64,000 nt of DNA from an uncultured Planctomycetaceae bacterium (lineage in GTDB: Bacteria > Planctomycetota > Planctomycetia > Planctomycetales > Planctomycetaceae), in the NCBI GenBank assembly GCA_963815195.1, contig CAWFGE010000016.1, forward strand, positions 64,001 to 128,000. The letters are read 5' to 3'. A program made the position numbers and the translations under genes. This document shows, piece after piece, positions 18,785 to 28,023 of the stretch. The notes below the pieces were generated by a model. That model worked only from the letters and a program-made list of their open reading frames with translations, did not search any database and was not told the DNA's origin. Each line of letters opens with the position of its first letter. Within the stretch, counting starts at the first letter, position 1.

Positions 18785-20040
18785 GGTTACACGGGCGGCT
18801 ATGATGCCGTGCGGCGGTTCGTGAATCGGCATCGGAAGAACCACGCCGAGACGTTCATCCCCTTGGATCATCGGCCCGGCCAGCGAATCGAAGCCGACTT
18901 TGGCGAGATTTCGGTGGACTTCCCCGACGGCCGCCGGAAGGTCAACGTGCTGATCCTGGTGTGGTCGTATTCCAACGCTCCGTTCGCGGTGGCGCTGCCG
19001 ACCCAGCGAACCGAAGCGATCTTGGAAGGCATGACGCAGGCGTTTGACTTTTTCGGCTGCGTGCCCGAAGAAGTCTGGTGGGACAATCCGACGACCGTGG
19101 CCACCGAGTTATTGACAGGGCGGTCGCGGAAGATCAATCCGCGTTACCAGGCGCTCGCCAGCCATTACGTGTTCGATCCGCTGTTCTGCATGCCCGCGCG
19201 GGGCAATGAAAAGCCGGTGGTGGAAAACCGCGTGAAGACGTTGGGAGCGGAAATGGTCCACGCCCGTGCCTCGCGTGAAGGACATGGAGGAGTTCAATGC
19301 GTATCTTCGCGAGTGTTGCTTGAAGGAACACGCTCGCTGCAGCAGCGGCCAGACGCAAACGATCGGGGAACGCTTCGCGGAGGAAAAACAGCGATCCGCT
19401 CCGCTTCCCGTGCCGCGGTTTGATCCCTGCATCCGGCAATCGGCGAAGGTCAACAAGTATCAGTTCGCGCGGTTCGACAATGTGAACTACAGCGTGCCTC
19501 GCCACGCCGCTTTTCAAACGGTGACGGTCAAGGGTTATGTGGATCGTGTCGAGATTGTGTTGAACGAAACCGTCGTCGCCGTCCACGAACGGAGCTATCA
19601 CGCGGGCGATGATGTGCTGGATCCTTTGCACTATTTGACCACATTAACGCGTCGCCCGGCGGCTTTGGATCATGCGAACGTGTATCGCGATTGGAAGCTG
19701 CCCGCCGTGTTCGGCGAACTCCGCGAGCGTTTGGAAAGGCGGCACGGTCCCCACGCGGGCGTGCGGCAATTCGTGCGGGTGCTGCAGTTGCTGGCCGAGC
19801 ATCCGCTCTCGCGCGTGCAGGCGGCGATCGAGCAACTTCGCGGCCCCGAAGGAGCCGATGCCGATCGCATCATTCGCCGCGTGGAAGCCTCCGCCCTCCG
19901 CCTGTCGGAAACATCGTCCGAGGGCATTTCCACTCCGATCGAGTGCGAACACCCCGGCGTGTTGTCGGTTCAAGTTCCCTGTCCGAGCTTGAGCCATTTT
20001 GACCAGTTCCTGTCCTCCTTCCAAGGAGATTCCGATTATG
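18785..20040 (+). pseudogene. istA: IS21-family transposase IstA, 5'-truncated, frameshift near 19245
   Basis: GYTGGYDAVRRFV...PGQRIEADFG...FFGCVPEEVWWDN...PARGNEKPVVE...FDNVNYSVP. Confidence 0.88.
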
Positions 20041-20397
20041 TCCCCGAACCCGAAACACGATGCCAACCAGATGCTCCTCAAGGCCAACCTCAAGCAACTC
20101 CGGCTGCCGACAATCCTGGCCGAGTACGAGAAGTTGGCCCGCGAAGCGAGTGCCTCGAACCAGACCTTCGAGCAGTACCTGCTCCGGTTGACCGAACTGG
20201 AGGTCGCGGCCCGGCAGACCAATGCCTTGAACAGCCGGATCCGCAATGCGAACTTTCCGGTGGAGAAGGGACTGGAGGATTACGACTTCCAAGCGGTGCC
20301 CGGCCTCCACAAACAAACGATTTTGGAGTTGGCCCGCGGGGAGTGGATTGCCCAGCATTTCAATGTGTGTTTTCTTGGCCAACCGGGGACGGGAAAG
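20038..20397 (+). pseudogene. istB: IS21 helper ATPase IstB, N-terminal part, interrupted at Walker A
   Basis: LLKANLKQLRLPT...NFPVEKGLEDYDF...LGQPGTGK, followed by unrelated sequence. Confidence 0.9.
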
Positions 20398-20398
20398 G

Positions 20399-20797
20399 TC
20401 CGACCATCACAAGACACCTCTGGTCACTCAGTTATCGCGCGGTGAGATCACCGTCACCGATCCGGCCCATCCGCTTTATGGCCGAACATTTGATTTGTTC
20501 GGCTTAGCCCGCCTGCCAGGTTATCGTCAGTATTATCAAGTCGAGATTTTTCCTGACGAGATGACCTACATCGACGTCAGCAGCACGAACCTTTCCACCG
20601 CTCCTCCCCAAAAAACTTCCTGTCTGACCCCGGACGCGCTCCAGGATTTGGTGACTACCTTTCGGGATATTCTTTCTCGGAGGGAAGCCGATGTCACCCA
20701 TTGCCACGGACCAGGTGTGGAACCGTCTGACTCTTCCAGAGCAGCAGCGGATCATCCAGCAAATCGTCGTCATTCTAACGGAGGAACTGGAGCATGA
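20399..20797 (+). CDS. Y4bD/Y4pK (DUF5372-like) small accessory protein lacking its own start codon in the integrated state
   Basis: SDHHKTP...EITVTDPAHPLYGRTFDL; the frame is open from the element boundary. Confidence 0.55.
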   Translation, partial: SDHHKTPLVTQLSRGEITVTDPAHPLYGRTFDLFGLARLPGYRQYYQVEIFPDEMTYIDVSSTNLSTAPPQKTSCLTPDALQDLVTTFRDILSRREADVTHCHGPGVEPSDSSRAAADHPANRRHSNGGTGA

Positions 20798-20975
20798 ACG
20801 GATCGATGAAAGTCAGCACCAGCCATTTGAATCGCCGCGGGATCGTATATCTTCGTCAGAGCACGACGAAGCAGGTCGAGAAAAACCAAGAGAGTGCCCA
20901 CAACCAGCGAGCCTTGAAAACCCGGTTGTTGGAGTTGGGGTGGAAGCCGGAACAAGTCAGCATCCTGGAGGATGA
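20691..20975 (+). CDS. Small helical accessory protein overlapping the LSR start
   Basis: RBS gaggga, then MSPIATDQVWNRLTLPEQQRIIQQI; positional and motif counterpart at 23385. Confidence 0.45.
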   Translation: MSPIATDQVWNRLTLPEQQRIIQQIVVILTEELEHERIDESQHQPFESPRDRISSSEHDEAGREKPRECPQPASLENPVVGVGVEAGTSQHPGG

Positions 20976-22868
20976 TCAAGGGCAATCGGCCACGCAAACG
21001 GCGGGACGCGGGGCCTTTCAACAGATGGTCGCCGACGTCGGCTTGGGTAAGGTCGGCATCATTCTGGGCTATGAAGTTTCACGGCTTTCCCGCAACGATG
21101 TGGATTGGCATCGACTGTTGGAATTGTGTGCGATCTTTGACACACTCATCGGTGATGTGGATGGGTTGTATCATCCACGGGATTTCAACGACAGGCTCCT
21201 CTTAGGCTTGAAGGGCACGATGTCTTCGGCAGACTCCATAGCCTCCGATTGCGATTGGACGCGGGTCGATTGTCGAAGGCCGCGCGGGGCGAGTTGGTGC
21301 AAAACTTGCCGACGGGCTTGGTCCGCAATCTGGACAAGGCGGTAATGCTCGATCCCGATCTGAGCATTCAAAAGCGATTGCATTTGGTGTTCGACAAGTT
21401 CGTGGAGTTGGGCACGATTCAAAAAGTCTTGACGTTCCTGGCCAAGAAAAATTTGAAGATTCCCCGGCGCCAAGTTTCGGGCCTTTATGCGGGCGAAGTG
21501 TTTTGGAGAGAAGCCACGGCCGCTTCGTTGGGCTCGATCCTGCATAACCCGGCTTATGCAGGCGCGTTTGCTCATGGGCGTCGGCAAGTCAATCCCACGC
21601 TACGAATTCCCGGTCGTCCTGCCACGGGTCGCACGCGCCGGCCCCAAGCGGAATGGTCGGTCTTAATTCCCGGCATCTACCCGGCCTATATCAGTTGGGA
21701 GCAGTACGAAGACAACCAACGCCGAATCGCTCAAAACAACCTCCGCATCCAACAACGACTCGCCGCCAAGCAAGCCATCCGCAACGGCTGCGCGTTGTTA
21801 ACGGGCTTATTGCGCTGCGGAAAATGCGGTCGAACGATGGGAGTGAATTACAAGGAGAACCGCTTTCAATACTCATGCAATTCTGGCTATCGGCATTACG
21901 CCCAACGATCCTGCCAGTACTTGGGCGGCAACAAGATCGACGAGGCGGTGACGGAAGCTTTCTTTGAAGTGCTGCGGCCTGCCGAGATCGATGTGTTGGA
22001 GAAACTCTCCGCCGAAAGGGCTCGCACGCATGCGGACGTGGTTCGGCATTTGGAGCAAGACGTCGGGCGCTTGCAATACGCCGCCCATCGGGCCGAGCAA
22101 CAATACGACTGTGTCGATCCCAAGAACCGTTTGATTGCGGCCAGTCTGGAAGAGAAATGGGAATCGGCTTTGTTGGCGCAAAAGCAAGCCGAAGAAAACC
22201 TGGCGGATGCCCGCCGAGAAATTCCCCAACCGATCCGCGTACCGAAGTCCTTGCGAGACGCCTTCGCGGATGTCGGGCGGCAGCTTCCCGAACTCTGGCC
22301 CGAGTTGTCTTGGGAGGCGAAGAAGTCGTTGTTGCGGACGATGATTACGGGAGTCAATCTTCACCGGCAATCGGATGGGCTGGTGCAAATTCGCATGGTC
22401 TGGGCCGGCGGTTCGGTGACCGAAACGTCGGCTCTCCTACGGCGTTTTTCAATGAAACACACGGACTTGGAAGAGCACATCGTGGAACGCATCCGGCAAG
22501 AAACCAGCGAAGGCCGGTCGAGTGAAATGATCGCGGCGGATCTCAATCGCGAAGGCCATCATCCCTGTCGTGGCGAACAATTCACCTCGCAAATCGTGAA
22601 CAAGTTAAGACATCGCTACCGGATCAAAAGCCCGCGTGCAAAGAACCTGCCCCATGCCTGGACCGCCGCGGAAATGGCTCAGGAAATCGGGCGCAACATA
22701 TCCTGGATGTATCATAAAATTGAGCAAAGACAGATCGTGGTTTCTGTCGATCCAATTTATCGGTGCTATCTGTTTCCCAAAACTGAGGAGGTTAAAGACG
22801 CCATGCTAAAACTCAAAAATCACGAAACCGAGCAAATCACTATCCCAAGGGGGCACAACAATGGCTGA
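20794..22868 (+). CDS. Large serine recombinase (resolvase + recombinase + Zn-ribbon + coiled coil + HTH); apparent 1-nt deletion near 21233
   Basis: VYLRQST catalytic motif, EVSRLSRN, DFNDRLLLGLKGTMS, ILHNPAYAG, LLRCGKCGRTM, VDPKNRLIAASLE. Confidence 0.92.
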
Positions 22869-22871
22869 GTC

Positions 22872-23063
22872 AAAACTCACTGCTGCCAGGCCGTGGGCCG
22901 CAGTGCGATCAAGGCGGGCTTCTCGGTGCTCTACCGTTCGATCTTCGATGTGGTCCGCGACTTCCTGCACGAGGCCGCGTTCGACGGCGATGACAAAACA
23001 TTGCAGCGTTACCTCAAGCCCGACCTGTTGATCGTCGACGACATGGGCATGAAGCAACTACCG
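22872..23063 (+). pseudogene. istB: Internal fragment of an IS21 IstB, from just after Walker A to just after Walker B
   Basis: KTHCCQAVG...GFSVLYRSIFDVVRDF...YLKPDLLIVDDMGMKQLP. Confidence 0.8.
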
Positions 23064-23065
23064 CT

Positions 23066-23416
23066 ACCCATCAACACAATGCTCATAAACCGTCCTCGGT
23101 AACGATCTGCTATCGTTTCCATGCTTTCTATGGCGAAGAGGTCCAGTTCGTTCGCACGTTTGGTGCGACCCATCATCTCGTGCGGTTGCCGGACGATGTG
23201 CAACTTGCCATTCCCTGTTGGATGCTTGATCCGATCGCCTGTGATCAGTGTCCCAATGCGGACCAGCCGCGGATCGCGATCGCGCCTTTGCTTGAGCTTC
23301 GCCAGCTTCTGAATCGTCAACCGTTGTTTCGCGCCGAGGATGGCTTTACGAATGGAGGAAACTCACTTTCTCCAGGAGATTCCGATGCCGCGAAGCAAAG
23401 CTCTTCCTCTCCCTAA
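23066..23416 (+). CDS. Y4bD/Y4pK (DUF5372-like) accessory protein, also start-less at the element end
   Basis: Open frame THQHNAHKPSSVTICYRFHAFYGEEV...LAIPCWMLDPIAC...LLELRQLL; the first possible start (GTG 23180) lies inside the conserved-looking part. Confidence 0.6.
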   Translation, partial: THQHNAHKPSSVTICYRFHAFYGEEVQFVRTFGATHHLVRLPDDVQLAIPCWMLDPIACDQCPNADQPRIAIAPLLELRQLLNRQPLFRAEDGFTNGGNSLSPGDSDAAKQSSSSP

Positions 23417-23573
23417 ACAGCAGGTGTTTGCGTTTGCACGAGTTGATCTGTGGGACAAGCTCCCGCAGACCGTGCGTGATGAGTGCCAACGGCTCCTCGC
23501 AGAGCAGTTGAAACAATCCTTGCCATCCCCTTCTCAACAGGAGCACGTCGATGAACGAGAAGATTCGATCTGA
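23385..23573 (+). CDS. Small accessory protein (WxxLP motif) overlapping the LSR start
   Basis: RBS aggag; MPRSK...LWDKLPQTVRDECQRLLAEQL. Confidence 0.5.
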   Translation: MPRSKALPLPKQQVFAFARVDLWDKLPQTVRDECQRLLAEQLKQSLPSPSQQEHVDEREDSI

Positions 23574-24510
23574 GCACCGAGAGCGAACCGCGTTTGTTTA
23601 TGTCCGGCAATCCAGTAATCATCAGGTCCGAGAACATCTCGAGGGACAACAACGGCAATATGCTCTGGCGGATTATGCGAGGCAGCTCAAATTCCAAAAG
23701 GTCACGGTGATTGATGATGATCTCGGCCGCTCGGGCAGTGGACTTCAGGACCGCCCGGGATTCGCGAGGTTACTCACAGCCGTTTGCCAAGGCGAAGCGG
23801 GAGCCGTGCTGGCCCTGGAGGCTTCTCGGTTGGCGCGGAACAATCGGGACTGGCACCATTTGATTGATCTGTGTGCGCTGACCGAGACGTTGATCATCGA
23901 TGACGATGGCGTCTGGCGTCTACGATCCCCGGGAACTCAACGACCGGTTGCTGTTGGGACTGAAGGGGAGTTTGGCAGAATTCGAGCTGGGGTTATTTCG
24001 ACAACGGGCTCGGGCCGCGTTTGAACAGAAAGTTCGACGGGGTCACATCCTGTGGGAGCCCGTGGTGGGTTTCGTCAAGACGGACGATCATCGGGTGGAA
24101 ATGATCGCTGATCGGCAAGTCCAAGAAGCCTTGCGCGGCGTCTTTCGCAAGTTTCGCGAGCTGGGCAGCGCGCGGCAGACGGCACTCTGGTACGCTCAAG
24201 AGCAACTGTGGCTTCCCGAGGCCGTCCGCGGCACTTCGGGCTATGAAATTCAGTGGCACATTCCCGGCCGGCATCGCATTCTGCAAATCCTGAAAAACCC
24301 GTGTTATGCGGGAGCTTTCGCTTGGGGACGAACCGTCTCGCAACTGTGGTGGAAGATGGCCGGGCGAGGACGAAGGGGCGAAAAAAGCGGCCGCGTGAGG
24401 AATGGAAGGTCTTGATTTTGGATCACCATCCCGGGTACATCACCTGGAAAGAGTATTTGCAAAATCAAGAGATTCTGGAGTCGAATCGAAACATGCCCGA
24501 AGGAACCACA
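23551..24510 (+). pseudogene. Large serine recombinase, frameshifted and truncated before the Zn-ribbon
   Basis: AFVYVRQSS, IDDDLGRSGSG, LEASRLARN, NDRLLLGLKG, ILKNPCYAG, DHHPGYITW; 7-bp tandem duplication at 23907-23920. Confidence 0.88.
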
Positions 24511-24511
24511 C

Positions 24512-26548
24512 CCCGGTCCCGGCGTCGCTGATGCTGATCGCCGTTCCACCGCTGGTTAGGGACAACTGCAGAGTGTCGGCGCCTGCGTCGCGGGTGACAA
24601 TATAATAGTCGGTGTCGGCGGCGAGACCGGCGGGCAGCGTATCGGTGGACCGCACCTGCACGATCTGATCTTCCACGAAATCGCCGCCGGCCAGATTCAA
24701 GGTGTCGCCGCTGACGGTGAATGTGGACCGCATCCGCATGCCGTACAGAATCGATATGGTGCCCGCGTCGACGTAAAGCACGTCGCCCGTGTCCGGCACG
24801 CGGCCGCCCGTGAAATTCAGCGGGTCGTTGAAATGGTTGGGGCCGGCGCTGAAGGTGCTTGCTTCCAAGGTCAGCGTCTCCGTCCCTGCCGCGCCGATCA
24901 GATCGCTGCCATCCGCCACCAACAGGGCCAGGTTCTGTCCCGAGACCAGCGCGCCGTTAAACGTGACGACCCAGGGGCCAGTGCCAGTGACGGTCACACC
25001 ATCGATCCCGACCAAGGCCTCCAAGGCGGATTCCACGGTGGCGGCGTTGGCGTTGTACGCGATGCTCCCGGTCGGTTCGCCATCAAAGGACAGCTTAAAG
25101 CTGCCGCCAGTGACGCCCACGCCGAGCGTAATGGTCTGTTGCTCATCCACGCTGGCCGCTGCCGTGGTGACGGTGGTCACCGTGCCGCCGCCCCCGGTCA
25201 GGTTCGTGCCATCGCCCGTTAATTCCGGCACATTCTCCGCGCCGGGATCCTCGAACGTGATCACCCAGGGATCGGCCGCCGTGCCCGAGCCGGTGACGGA
25301 CACATCCAGGATGTTCGACAAGCCTTCCAGAGCGGTTTCGATCGTCGCAGCACTGGCGTTCCAGGCGATGCCCGACGTGGTCTGCCCGTCGAACGTCACA
25401 TCGAAAGTACCTCCCGTTGCGAAGATCCACAGCTGCTGGACTTCGTTGGCCCCGCCACTCAATCCTTCATATTGAATGACCTGCGAACTGCCCGAGCCGT
25501 TCGTCAGTTGGGAATCGTCCACGGAAAATGTATCCAGAATGGACGCTGTGGTGCTGGAGAATTTGATCGCGAACAATCCCGCTCGGCCATAGAAGGAGCC
25601 GTACAATTGCAGGTTCTGGGCCAGGGCATTCGCCAACAGGTCCAAATCGGTCAGCCCATAGTTGTAGCTGTAGTCCGCTGTTCCACCGTTGTAACTGAAG
25701 CCGATATAGCCTCCGTTCGCATCGTGGTAATCGACAATCACCACGCGCTGGTTGCTGACCCCGCCCGTGGCAATGACTTGCGGCACTTCGTTGAACGGCG
25801 TCGCGCCTCCGCCGCCCAGCGTGCCGATGTCGTAATCCAAGGCCTGGACGGACTGACCGGCCAGATCGCCGATGAACTCGATGAAATACACCCGCCGCCC
25901 GCCCAGGCTGGCCAACTGATATCCCGCATAGACGGCCACATTCCCCGCGCCGATGGAACTGATGCTTTCCAGGGCCGATTGCACTTCGGCGGCGGTCGCG
26001 TCGTAGTCGATGTTCGTGGAACTCTCGCCGTACAGGGACAACGTGTATTGCCCCTGGCTCGCGTCCAGCACGTAGTACTGGATTGTGTTGGAATACTCCG
26101 AGCCTTCGGTGATCGTGTCGATGACGACGTCGCCGTTGCCGGTCAGGTTGGTGCCGTCCAGCGACATGAGGTTCACGTCGGTTTCGGCATAGTTGCCTTT
26201 GAAGGTCACATACCACGGTCCGCCGGACTGCCCGGTGACCAGGAAATCGCCGGGAACCGGCGTCGCCAGGTTTTCAAGCGCAGTTTGCACGTCGGCGGGC
26301 GTGGCGTTGTAGGCGATGCCGGCAGTCGTTTCGGTGCCGCTGCCGGCGTCCCAGGAGATCGTGAACGTGCCGCCCGAATAGGTGCCGACCAGCTGCAGCT
26401 TCTGGACTTCGTTCCGCCCCGCGAATCCCGCCGTGGTCTCTTCCACGGTGACGTTCCCGCCCTCGGTGTTTGTGGTGGACGATGCGACCTCAAAGGGCAC
26501 GCCCGGCTTGCGAGCCGTGAGCGTGAGGTAATCGCCGAAGTCCTCGGC
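24512..26548 (-). pseudogene. Internal fragment of a phage-structural/adhesin-like protein with five tandem repeats of about 95 aa (NEVQ...GGTF...IAYNA..A.V..ALE)
   Basis: Repeats visible in ORF 24440..27148; both ORF ends run antisense into unrelated + strand genes. Confidence 0.65.
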
Positions 26549-26938
26549 CATTTCCAATCCGGCCAACGGAGCACGAAGGAAATGCAAACCGGGGAACCGC
26601 CCGAACCCGCGGCCGTGGCCCCACGTGTGCCGCGTGTGGCCAAGCTTATGGCCTTGGCAATAAGGTTCGAAGGCTTGATCCGCGACGGCGTCGTGGCCGA
26701 CTACGCGGAACTGGCGCGATTGGGGCACGTCTCGCGGGCCAGAATCACGCAGATCGGTAATCTTCTGAATTTGGCTCCGGACATCGAGGAGGCGATTCTG
26801 TTTCTGGAGCCGGTGGAAGAGGGAAAAGATCCGATTACCGAACGGGATCTGCGGCCGATTGTGGCTGTTGCGGATTGGAAAAAGCAGCGGCGGATGTGGC
26901 GCGGCTTGGTGGAAAGAACCCGCTTGATGAGGAATTGA
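26549..26938 (+). pseudogene. 5'-truncated conserved planctomycete HTH-like gene of recombinase-associated elements (copy 1)
   Basis: RVPRVAKLMALAIRFEGLIRDGVVADYAELARLGHVSRARITQIGNLLNLAPDIEEAILFL. Confidence 0.7.
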
Positions 26939-27117
26939 GAGGAACTTTGCGAAACTAATGAAATTGCTTCTGGTCTGTCTTTCGTGGCCGCGATAAAATC
27001 GCTGTCTATCCAAAGGAGACAGATCATGAATGTTGAAATCGTGTGCCAACCCAGATGACCCCTCCCTGATCTGGGACGGCGTCACCACTTCACCGGAATC
27101 CATACTGAGAGTATTCG

Positions 27118-28023
27118 ATGTTTCGGCACATTTTTCTTTTGATCGCAATCGGCGTCCTGATTCCTGCGGAAAAAGAATCGATGGCCGAGGACGCCATCGA
27201 CTTCGTCGCCGTCACCGACTATTTGCAACTTCCCGAAAACGTCGCCCTCGGTCCATGTTCCGCCGTCGATTTCGACAGCAACGGCCGGCTGTATCTATTG
27301 CATCGGGGAAAGCGACCTATTCTTTGCTTTGATCAAAACGGAAAATTCCTGCGCTCGTGGGGTGACGACTTGATCGGCAAGGCCCACGGCTTGCGGATCG
27401 ACCCTGCGGACAATGTTTGGGTCACCGACATTGGCCATCATATGGTCGTCAAGTTCAGCCCAAAGGGAAAGCTGCTACTTGCCTTGGGACAATCTGGCAA
27501 ACCCGGCACGGGCGACGATCAATTCAATCAGCCAACCGATATTGCGTTCGGCCCCAAGGGGGAAGTTTACGTCTCCGATGGATACGGCAACAGCCGCGTC
27601 ATGAAGTTTGCCCCAAACGGAAGATTTCTGGCGAAGTGGGGCCGACCGGGCAAGGGAAAGGGAGAGTTTGACTTGCCCCACTCCATCGTTGTGGATCCCA
27701 AGGGCAGAGTTCTGGTTGGCGACCGCGAGAACGATCGCATTCAGATCTTCGACTCCGAAGGCACATTCCTGGAGAGTTGGCCCGGTTTTGCCCCGTATGG
27801 GATGGAACTTGGCGCAAAGGGAGCCCTGTTTGTGGCGGACGGCCGCGCGAACAAGATCTTGCAGCTTGATTCGGCCGGAACGACGATTGGCACGTGGGGT
27901 CGAAAAGGAAACGGTCTTGGCGAGTTCAATTTGCCTCACATGCTCGCCGCCGACAGCAAAGGGAATTTGTATGTCGCCGAAGTTGGCGGACAGCGTCTTC
28001 AAAAGCTGAGGCGCAAGGAATAA
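27118..28023 (+). CDS. Secreted NHL-repeat protein (peptidyl-alpha-hydroxyglycine amidating lyase-like)
   Basis: Signal peptide; AHGLRID, FNQPTDIAF..GEVYVSDGYGNSRV, FDLPHSI, DRENDRIQIF. Confidence 0.88.
   Translation: MFRHIFLLIAIGVLIPAEKESMAEDAIDFVAVTDYLQLPENVALGPCSAVDFDSNGRLYLLHRGKRPILCFDQNGKFLRSWGDDLIGKAHGLRIDPADNVWVTDIGHHMVVKFSPKGKLLLALGQSGKPGTGDDQFNQPTDIAFGPKGEVYVSDGYGNSRVMKFAPNGRFLAKWGRPGKGKGEFDLPHSIVVDPKGRVLVGDRENDRIQIFDSEGTFLESWPGFAPYGMELGAKGALFVADGRANKILQLDSAGTTIGTWGRKGNGLGEFNLPHMLAADSKGNLYVAEVGGQRLQKLRRKE

What the first reader, a model, noticed from the sequence alone, without database searches (positions are those of the whole stretch)
20398..22870. LSR element whose first gene would acquire its RBS and start codon only on excision/circularisation
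Seen in the sequence: the left junction is ggaaag|GT|ccgaCCATcacaag and the right junction is AAGGGGGcacaacaATGGctga|GT|caaaac. The first ORF (20399-20797) has no start codon at the element boundary. The last codons of the recombinase contain an outward-facing RBS (22847-22853) and ATG (22861). Joining the ends at GT gives ATG GCT GAG TCC GAC CAT CAC AAG (MAESDHHKTPLV...ITVTDPAHPLYG), exactly in frame. The same join makes a symmetric site, ATGG-ctga-GT-ccga-CCAT. Established: serine recombinases cut at a central dinucleotide between inverted half-sites. Inference: the start codon is itself part of the recombination site, so this accessory protein (possibly a directionality or targeting factor) is translated only from the excised circle, coupled to the LSR stop. 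I do not know of a description of this switch for these elements.
Basis: partly seen in the sequence, partly recalled or inferred. Interest (0 to 1): 0.85.

Follow-up and report, generated by a model that had tools for sequence, protein, structure and literature searches.

The report
Gene completed only on excised circle
A small jumping element that inserts into the ATPase gene of another jumping element keeps the start signal of its helper gene at its far end, so the helper protein can be made only when the element's two ends are joined.

Summary
The element (2,477 bp, at least 8 near-identical copies in this genome) sits in the Walker-A codons of IS21 istB genes. Two empty sites show the crossover is the AA of the lysine codon (20395-96 / 22872-73), not GT. 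The first gene, a remote DUF5372 relative, has no start codon of its own before its invariant motif. A Shine-Dalgarno-like run and an ATG lie at the opposite end, overlapping the recombinase stop. Joining the ends at AA still gives an in-frame fusion (M-A-E-S-R-S-D-H-H-K...). The same holds in 32 of 32 related elements with both ends, and in five lineages with unrelated att sequences. A complex model places the protein at the zinc-domain/coiled-coil junction of the recombinase, where directionality factors bind (score 0.73, best control 0.00). Translation from a joined form, and what the protein does, are inferred, not shown. No joined form was found in this assembly or in four metagenome contig sets. 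Caveat: the ATG lies inside a dyad-symmetric attP half-site. This scan noted the same layout earlier on other DNA (seven notes, each on another genome). Six full-text searches found no published description.

The parts
19999..20396 (+). 5' part of the IS21 istB gene, ending in Walker A G-Q-P-G-T-G-K (the target)
   Evidence: PF01695 profile positions 2-105, E 1.6e-19
20395..20396 (.). left copy of the AA crossover dinucleotide (positions 1-2 of the lysine codon)
   Evidence: empty sites; contig loose end at 20395
20397..20422 (+). P' arm of attP; it also encodes the N-terminal residues of ORF1 up to T-P-L-V
   Evidence: 26-nt dyad symmetry with the right-end arm across 23 distinct P' and 11 distinct P arms
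20397..20797 (+). body of ORF1, a DUF5372-like protein with no start codon of its own; its stop TGA overlaps the recombinase ATG (ATGA)
   Evidence: model with pLDDT 71: four strands plus a helix, tail 102-132 disordered
20691..20975 (+). ORF2, a small gene with its own GGAGGGAAG-ATG start; only the first 40 or so residues are conserved
   Evidence: tblastn hits in related loci, all starting M-x-P..VW..L..E..V.EEI.RILTEE
20794..22868 (+). large serine recombinase gene, broken in this copy by a 1-nt deletion near 21233; intact (691 aa) in the copy on contig C15
   Evidence: PF00239, PF07508, PF13408; copy comparison; extra G behind 21233 in contigs of runs X1 and X3
22846..22871 (+). P arm of attP, holding the SD-like run and the ATG
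22847..22853 (+). outward-facing Shine-Dalgarno-like AAGGGGG
   Evidence: purine-rich equivalents in relatives
22861..22863 (+). ATG that becomes the ORF1 start when the ends are joined; it lies 2 nt before the recombinase stop
22872..22873 (.). right copy of the AA crossover dinucleotide
   Evidence: contig loose end at 22873
22874..23068 (+). middle part of the same istB gene
   Evidence: PF01695 profile positions 105-167
23069..24511 (+). second, unrelated-looking recombinase element (E2) in the same istB; decayed and cut off at its right side
   Evidence: complete copies at 84% identity on C21, C14 and C19

Best explanation
This is a 2.5-kb mobile element moved by a large serine recombinase. 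It inserts, in one orientation, at the AA of the Walker-A lysine codon of IS21 istB genes. Its attP site lies inside the 5' end of its first gene. The SD-like run, the ATG and four codons sit at the right end, overlapping the recombinase stop. The rest of the gene sits at the left end. While the element is integrated the gene has no start and the protein is not made, or hardly made. When the ends are joined, in an excised circle or a head-to-tail tandem, the gene is whole and can be translated, probably by re-initiation after the recombinase stop. The protein is a small beta-barrel plus helix related to DUF5372. It is predicted to bind the recombinase where the zinc domain meets the coiled coil, which is where directionality factors act. 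I infer that it tells the recombinase that the element is free and biases the reaction, most plausibly toward re-insertion. Shown: anatomy, crossover position, conservation of the split. Inferred: circle formation, circle-only translation, binding, and direction of the effect.
For: Boundaries rest on two empty sites and contig loose ends. There is no canonical start between the crossover and the invariant motif in the window copy. The in-silico join is in frame. Of the related elements with both ends, 32 of 32 have an in-frame ATG before any stop (25 of 25, and the 7 that my patterns had dropped): 11 of the Walker-A type and 21 of the Ktedonobacter type. The Ktedonobacter type has AAGGGAGG/AAGAGAGG followed by ATGA overlapping the recombinase stop in 21 of the 21 right ends not cut by a contig end (25 rows). 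Three further lineages with other att sequences behave the same. These are the canonical four-gene DUF5372 element of G351, E2 on C21, and an E2-like element of G351, where the target supplies an in-frame TGA just upstream and the right end supplies GGAGGTG-CATT-GTG. Chance for one lineage is 14%, or 1.8% with an SD-like motif. Database annotations of the family have erratic N-termini. Among the 150 best representatives, 96 match from profile position 4 or earlier; these carry leaders of 1-330 residues (median 15.5). Another 26 begin inside the profile. The protein is real: 830 representatives at E<=0.001, and 98.5% profile match to the Ktedonobacter-type relatives, whose member L032 passes the DUF5372 cut-off. 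Complex model: ipSAE 0.73, best of 3 controls 0.00; this mark was reached by 116 of 157 solved complexes and 2 of 215 mismatched pairs; runs agree in at least 65% of contacts; partner pLDDT at least 64. Interface on the recombinase: 341-346, 393-409, 481-543. Verified directionality factors are predicted to bind the DBD2-coiled-coil junction (PMC12286644, passages).
Against: No joined form was seen. The junction 24-mer is absent from this assembly, and the contigs of four metagenome runs show no joint; contigs cannot show rare forms. The ATG and the SD-like run lie in a dyad-symmetric half-site, and a codon boundary falls on the dyad centre. Within the Walker-A type, the in-frame ATG therefore follows largely from symmetry plus one asymmetric base: CCAT in 8 and CCAG in 2 of 11 distinct right arms (the eleventh, L028's, reads ACAT), against CCAA on the left. 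The ORF1 frame is open 44-901 codons into the flank, with flank ATGs 12 codons upstream in this window's flank type and 37 in another. Nine of 25 relatives have a non-conserved internal GTG or TTG before the motif. The complete E2 copies have an internal ATG four codons before their motif. Some family members in the database have short, mutually similar N-termini (P0123, P0141, P0156), so unsplit versions may exist. The recombinase of this window's copy is frameshifted, and only 1 of the 5 complete copies I compared is intact. If the protein were a canonical excision factor, making it only from the circle would block re-insertion.
Confidence: 0.7

Rival explanations
1. ORF1 is translated in the integrated state, from a start supplied by the flanking istB DNA or from an internal or non-canonical start. 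The right-end SD-like run and ATG are then a by-product of attP half-site symmetry and have no role in translation.
For: Dyad symmetry places the reverse complement of CCAT and of CCTCTG exactly where the ATG and the SD-like run lie. There are flank ATGs 12 and 37 codons upstream in two flank types. Nine of 25 relatives have internal GTG or TTG. E2 on C21 has an internal ATG.
Against: The C23 copy has no canonical start in 44 open flank codons and none inside. In the E2-like element of G351 the target supplies an in-frame TGA directly upstream. The internal starts are not conserved. Five lineages with different att sequences all carry a start at the far end. The Ktedonobacter type has a full AAGGGAGG plus ATGA overlap. 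The right arm keeps CAT where the left arm has CAA.
Confidence: 0.15
2. The joined form that completes the gene is not a free circle. It is a head-to-tail tandem or another replicative intermediate, so the gene marks tandem arrays rather than excision.
For: Any end-to-end join gives the same sequence. Copies in this genome have recombined with each other: on C15 the left flank is of one istB type and the right flank of another.
Against: No tandem junction exists in this assembly. Large serine recombinase transposons are known to move through circles (title of Lyras and Rood 2000, seen only as a reference-list entry in PMC13023037).
Confidence: 0.07
3. ORF1 is not a functional protein gene. Its conservation reflects DNA-level constraints of the att site and of the overlapping ORF2.
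For: The N-terminal codons overlap the P' arm and the tail overlaps ORF2. The tail is disordered and its stop position varies.
Against: Conservation extends over 95 aligned columns, far beyond the att site, between phyla. There are 830 family representatives, a confident core fold, and an interface that uses the invariant P-x-H-P-L-Y residues.
Confidence: 0.03

Closest known systems
Tn4451/Tn4453 and the large resolvase TnpX (Lyras and Rood 2000; I saw only its title in the reference list of PMC13023037)
   Same: An element moved by a large serine recombinase, in which joining the ends creates an expression signal that does not exist in the integrated state.
   Different: There the joint forms a promoter for the recombinase. 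Here the promoter is not at issue: the ribosome-binding site, the start codon and four codons of an accessory gene are separated from the gene body by attP.
Circle-specific promoters of integrative conjugative elements (ICEclc Pcirc, ICEKp1 P3'end; PMC13023037, discussion passage)
   Same: A signal at one end acts on a gene at the other end only after excision.
   Different: Those act on transcription of the integrase gene. They are tyrosine-recombinase elements, and no coding sequence is split.
Integration-dependent immunity of mycobacteriophage BPs (PMC4557955, abstract and passages)
   Same: attP lies inside a gene of the element, so the free and the integrated forms encode different products.
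   Different: There the 3' end of a repressor gene is removed and the integrated form is the active one. Here the 5' end with the start is removed, and the integrated form should give no product.
SSV-type 'suicidal' tyrosine integrases of archaeal viruses and plasmids (PMC8371274, abstract and passages)
   Same: attP lies inside a gene needed for recombination. The gene is whole only in the circle, which gives directionality without a regulator.
   Different: There the recombinase gene itself is split, and the review calls this exclusive to archaea. Here a bacterial serine-recombinase element keeps the recombinase whole and splits a cofactor gene.
Recombination directionality factors of large serine integrases (PMC12286644, passages; SPbeta integrase-RDF entries 9dxd and 9dxh, listed)
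   Same: A small, fast-evolving protein predicted to dock at the junction of the zinc domain (DBD2) and the coiled coil.
   Different: Known factors are made in the integrated state to trigger excision. This one lacks a start in that state. There is no fold match to any solved chain.

Membership tests
Large serine recombinase | N-terminal resolvase catalytic domain | tested here: met
   PF00239, 53.9 bits against a cut-off of 23.3
Large serine recombinase | Recombinase domain (DBD1) followed by a zinc beta-ribbon domain (DBD2) | tested here: met
   PF07508 at 64.1 bits and PF13408 at 40.6 bits, both over their cut-offs
Large serine recombinase | Two-base staggered cut at a central dinucleotide between inverted half-sites | tested here: inconclusive
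   Empty and filled sites share only AA(G), and the arms are dyad-symmetric about AA. Cleavage itself cannot be tested here.
DUF5372 (PF17342) | Match to the Pfam profile over the gathering score | tested here: not met
   The window protein has no hit even at E<=10, and the profile has no hit in the own genome.
DUF5372 (PF17342) | Homology to proteins that do pass the profile | tested here: met
   The relative L032 scores 28 bits against a cut-off of 25. Family-to-family hhalign gives 98.5%, E 3.2e-15, over 95 columns.
Recombination directionality factor of a serine integrase | Binds the cognate integrase at the DBD2-coiled-coil junction | tested here: inconclusive
   Prediction only: ipSAE 0.73, best control 0.00, interface at residues 341-346, 393-409 and 481-543.
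Recombination directionality factor of a serine integrase | Switches the reaction from attP x attB to attL x attR | not testable with these tools
   Needs recombination assays.
Tn4451-type serine-recombinase transposon | Excises as a circle that is the insertion intermediate | not testable with these tools
   No joint in the contigs of 4 runs or in the assembly. Raw reads were not available.
IS21 IstB (the target gene) | IstB_IS21 profile continuous across the insertion | tested here: met
   PF01695 positions 2-105 on the left and 105-167 on the right.
SSV-type suicidal integration | attP lies inside the recombinase gene | tested here: not met
   The recombinase reading frame ends 3 nt before the crossover. 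The split gene is the accessory ORF.

The most novel reading that the evidence does not exclude
The direction of a serine-recombinase reaction is set here by DNA topology rather than by regulation. The element's attP cuts the translation start off the gene for a cofactor that docks like a directionality factor, so the cofactor exists only while the element is extrachromosomal. It then drives or licenses re-insertion, the reverse of a classical directionality factor. Integration switches it off by splitting the gene. The small ORF2, which has its own start, may be the counterpart that acts in the integrated state. The same elements are dedicated parasites of other mobile elements, homing to the Walker-A codons of IS21 istB genes or to a conserved transposase motif.
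Probability: 0.35. Interest if true: 0.9.

Novelty: new variant of a known kind. Interest (0 to 1): 0.8.

Why it matters
How large serine recombinases choose between insertion and excision is an active question, and these enzymes are widely used as genome-engineering tools. This layout would be a self-contained switch. A cofactor gene exists only in the free form of the element, so the state of the DNA is read out directly as presence or absence of a protein. It is easy to test with a reporter and with in vitro recombination. It also explains why gene callers give this family (830 representatives at 50% identity) erratic N-termini. The insertion into Walker-A codons (28 of 28 left flanks) gives a simple natural example of a recombinase aimed at a short, highly conserved coding motif.

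Tried and rejected
GT crossover: rejected by two empty sites.

Joined form in public data: all runs listed were kept as contigs only and no RNA holder was listed. Laying 4 runs gave no joint. The junction 24-mer is absent from the assembly.

Close relatives in the phylum: the ORF1 protein found only the own genome among 401 genomes searched.

Direct Pfam and NCBIfam naming of ORF1 and ORF2: nothing usable.

Fold search of the ORF1 model: no match at E<=0.001. The weak rows are small SH3-like barrels such as NdhS, PsaE, NusG and Mfd.

Promoter scan: no sigma-70-like site on the + strand inside the element. The scan is not suited to this organism's promoters.

In-frame fusion to IstB: rejected, because ORF1 is in the +1 frame of istB.

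First reading of the E2-like element of G351: I first thought it had an in-element stop upstream of the ORF. Empty sites then showed that this TGA belongs to the target.

Literature: 'DUF5372' gave 0 papers. 'large serine recombinase' + 'circular intermediate' + 'start codon' gave 0. 'serine recombinase' + 'circularization' + 'reconstitutes' + 'open reading frame' gave 0. 'large serine recombinase' + 'IstB' gave 0. Two looser searches listed nothing on this, judged from titles and abstracts, plus passages of PMC11187229. The library holds only open-access papers and bioRxiv.
Full report
WHAT IS THERE. The window holds a decayed IS21 copy. Its istA is split between two frames (18809-19423 and 19266-20000). 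Its istB starts at 19999. The IstB profile runs to position 105 at 20397 and resumes at position 105 at about 22872. Between the two parts lie a 132-codon open frame without a start (ORF1), a small ORF2 with its own GGAGGGAAG-ATG (20691), and a large serine recombinase gene (20794-22868) with resolvase, recombinase and zinc-ribbon domains. In this copy the recombinase is broken by a 1-nt deletion near 21233. Contigs of two metagenome runs carry the extra G. The copy on contig C15 encodes an intact 691-aa protein. Only 1 of the 5 complete copies that I extracted is intact.

THE ELEMENT AND ITS TRUE ENDS. A search of the own genome with 20398-22870 gave 10 matches. Seven cover the whole query, one is cut by a contig end, one is a 678-bp left part, and one is a 90-nt remnant at 81% identity. 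Every copy sits in an istB gene, right after G-x-G-K, in the same orientation as istB. Two unoccupied istB genes of the same types read ..ggcacgggaaaaagccac.. (C23) and ..ggctccgggaagacgaatctg.. (C9). These give G-K-S-H and G-K-T-N, without the V-K codons that a GT crossover would leave. Filled and empty sites share only AA(G). The third base of the lysine codon follows the element on the left and the flank on the right, so the exchange is at AA (20395-96 and 22872-73). Contigs from other samples leave the window sequence exactly at 20395 and at 22873. The unit is 2,477 bp. By tblastn the genome has 11 IstB parts that begin at the Walker-A lysine. It has five intact IstB-like genes, plus a C6 match next to a decayed element end and the empty type-B site on C9, which this count scored among the 11.

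THE SPLIT GENE. The right end reads ...AAGGGGGCACAACAATGGCTGAGTC-AA, and the left end reads AA-GGTCCGACCATCACAAG... The ATG (22861) lies 2 nt before the recombinase stop. With the ends joined at AA the frame runs M-A-E-S-R-S-D-H-H-K-T-P-L-V... into ORF1. Inside the element the first canonical start in this frame is TTG at 20495, after the invariant motif.

DOES IT HOLD IN RELATIVES?

Twelve database homologues are conserved from T-P-L-V-T-E onward, and each has a different annotated N-terminus. DNA of relatives came from genome contigs (11 loci) and from metagenome contigs (135 confirmed, best 80 kept).

One group, the Walker-A type to which the window belongs, always follows an in-frame G-x-x-G-x-G-K: 28 of 28 left ends with enough flank. 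A second group, the Ktedonobacter type, follows W-F/L-G-E near the start of a transposase-like gene, or L-L-G-E in IstB.

In both groups the ORF runs open up to the crossover, and the asparagine codon is formed by the second crossover base plus two element bases. All 32 elements with both ends give an in-frame ATG before any stop: 25 of 25 found by my patterns and the 7 that the patterns had dropped.

In the Ktedonobacter type, 21 of the 25 rows reach the right end; the other 4 are cut by a contig end. All 21 read AAGGGAGG or AAGAGAGG, four or five bases, then ATGA overlapping the recombinase stop.

Three further lineages with unrelated att sequences agree:
- A canonical four-gene DUF5372 element of genome G351. 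Its ends were defined from two copies, and the right end AGGTGCAGT-ATG reads M-K-R-T-P-W-K-K-L... into the ORF.
- E2, the second element type of this very genome (M-S-K-H-T-P-I-H...).
- An E2-like element with six copies in G351. Empty sites place the crossover at AC. The target supplies an in-frame TGA just upstream of the ORF, and the right end supplies GGAGGTG-CATT-GTG in frame.

In random positions of this genome an ATG precedes a stop within 15 codons in 14% of cases, and with an SD-like 4-mer in 1.8%. The lineages are kin, so this is conservation under divergence, not five independent draws.

A CAVEAT THAT MATTERS. The two arms of attP in the Walker-A type are dyad-symmetric over 26 nt. 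The ATG is the reverse complement of the CCAT at positions 8-11 of the half-site. The SD-like CAGAGG is the reverse complement of the CCTCTG that encodes T-P-L on the other arm. A codon boundary falls on the dyad centre. Being in frame is therefore built into the site, and part of the conservation of the ATG and of T-P-L-V may serve recombinase binding. Two observations still point to a start function. First, the right arm keeps CAT (8 of 11 distinct arms; 2 have CAG and then an in-frame ATG 14 codons before the asparagine codon formed at the crossover; the eleventh, L028's, reads ACAT and uses that same upstream ATG) where the left arm has CAA. Second, the gene has no other conserved start.

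Other ways to start exist in some copies. There are flank ATGs 12 or 37 codons upstream. Nine of 25 relatives have a non-conserved internal GTG or TTG. The complete E2 copies have an internal ATG. The C23 copy has none of these.

WHAT THE PROTEIN IS. Pfam does not hit the window protein. The Ktedonobacter-type relative L032 passes DUF5372 (28 bits, cut-off 25), and the two family profiles match at 98.5% over 95 columns. A profile search found 830 representatives at E<=0.001. Among the 150 best, 96 match from profile position 4 or earlier. These carry leaders of 1 to 330 residues, median 15.5. Another 26 begin inside the profile. This is what gene callers do when a gene has no start of its own.

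The model (pLDDT 71) shows four strands, a helix at 78-100 and a disordered tail. No solved fold matches at E<=0.001.

A complex model with the 691-aa recombinase scored ipSAE 0.73 against 0.00 for the best of 3 controls. This mark was reached by 116 of 157 solved complexes and by 2 of 215 mismatched pairs. The runs agree in at least 65% of contacts, and the partner pLDDT is at least 64. My own alignments were used, so these counts hold only roughly. The contacts are ORF1 residues 22-27 (the invariant P-x-H-P-L-Y), 50-56 and 71-91, with recombinase residues 341-346, 393-409 and 481-543. From the position of the Pfam zinc-ribbon hit, I read these as the zinc domain and the two bases of the coiled coil. 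Verified directionality factors are predicted to bind at that junction (PMC12286644, passages). The model supports binding; it does not show it.

HOW IT MOST LIKELY WORKS. While integrated, the recombinase and ORF2 can be made but ORF1 cannot. Once the ends are joined, a transcript that runs through the recombinase gene continues across attP. Ribosomes that stop at TGA can restart at the ATG 5 nt upstream. The protein then binds the recombinase. A classical excision factor made only from the circle would block re-insertion. I therefore favour a factor that licenses or drives insertion of the free form and is switched off when integration splits its gene. This last step is inference only.

COMPARISON WITH WHAT IS KNOWN.
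- Circle-specific promoters are known for Tn4451 (title only, seen in a reference list) and for ICEclc and ICEKp1 (PMC13023037, passage).
- attP inside a gene is known for the BPs repressor, where the 3' end is removed (PMC4557955).
- attP inside a gene is also known for archaeal suicidal integrases, where the recombinase gene itself is split; the review calls this exclusive to archaea (PMC8371274).
- A bacterial serine-recombinase element that separates the start region of a cofactor gene from its body is a new variant of this theme.

Six full-text searches found no description of it. The library holds only open-access papers and preprints.

EARLIER NOTES OF THIS SCAN. One search listed seven earlier notes, each on another genome, that describe the same layout for DUF5372 genes. 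I used them as leads to three comparisons and tested the central claim on this window's own family.

Noticed in passing
window 23069-24511: A second recombinase element (E2) sits in the same istB gene, after D-D-M-G-M-K-Q-L-P. It is decayed (recombinase in two frames) and its right side is missing. Where complete copies at 84% identity on C21, C14 and C19 have an internal ATG, this copy has ACG.
   Followed up: partly
window 18809-20000: The istA gene of the host IS21 copy is split between two frames (rve domain in one, Mu-transposase C-terminal domain in the other). The IS21 copy itself is therefore broken, apart from the two insertions in istB.
   Followed up: no
G000:C15 copy (L002) and the window copy: Left and right flanks of some copies belong to different istB types: C15 has type A on the left and type B on the right, and the window has type A on the left and type C on the right. 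Copies have therefore recombined with each other and rearranged the chromosome.
   Followed up: partly
G000:C7 minus-strand copy (L005): The ORF1 frame stays open for 901 codons into the upstream flank, far longer than chance would give. I do not know what that frame encodes.
   Followed up: no
G000:C6:1454-1545: A decayed, AT-rich remnant of a related right end (81% identity) lies next to a type-A istB. It still reads AACAATGGCTG.
   Followed up: partly
L031-L033 and L058-L113: The Ktedonobacter-type relatives nearly all sit after W-F/L-G-E near the start of a transposase-like gene (..P-S-W-F-G-E | E-V-V-L-I..H-L-R-K-H-G-V-L). Three sit after L-L-G-E of IstB. This whole superfamily seems to home to genes of other mobile elements.
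   Followed up: partly
L026: This copy is 4.9 kb instead of 2.5 kb between its ends, and its right flank encodes a tyrosine-recombinase C-terminus instead of IstB.
   Followed up: no
window 24440-27148 (minus strand): A 902-codon open frame with repeated T/G/S-rich units abuts the point where E2 is cut off.
   Followed up: no
proteins P0123, P0141, P0156: Three family representatives share a short N-terminus (M-R-x-A-S-T-S-A-H-L-D-T-P). This may mean that some subfamilies keep their own start. Their DNA could not be fetched.
   Followed up: no
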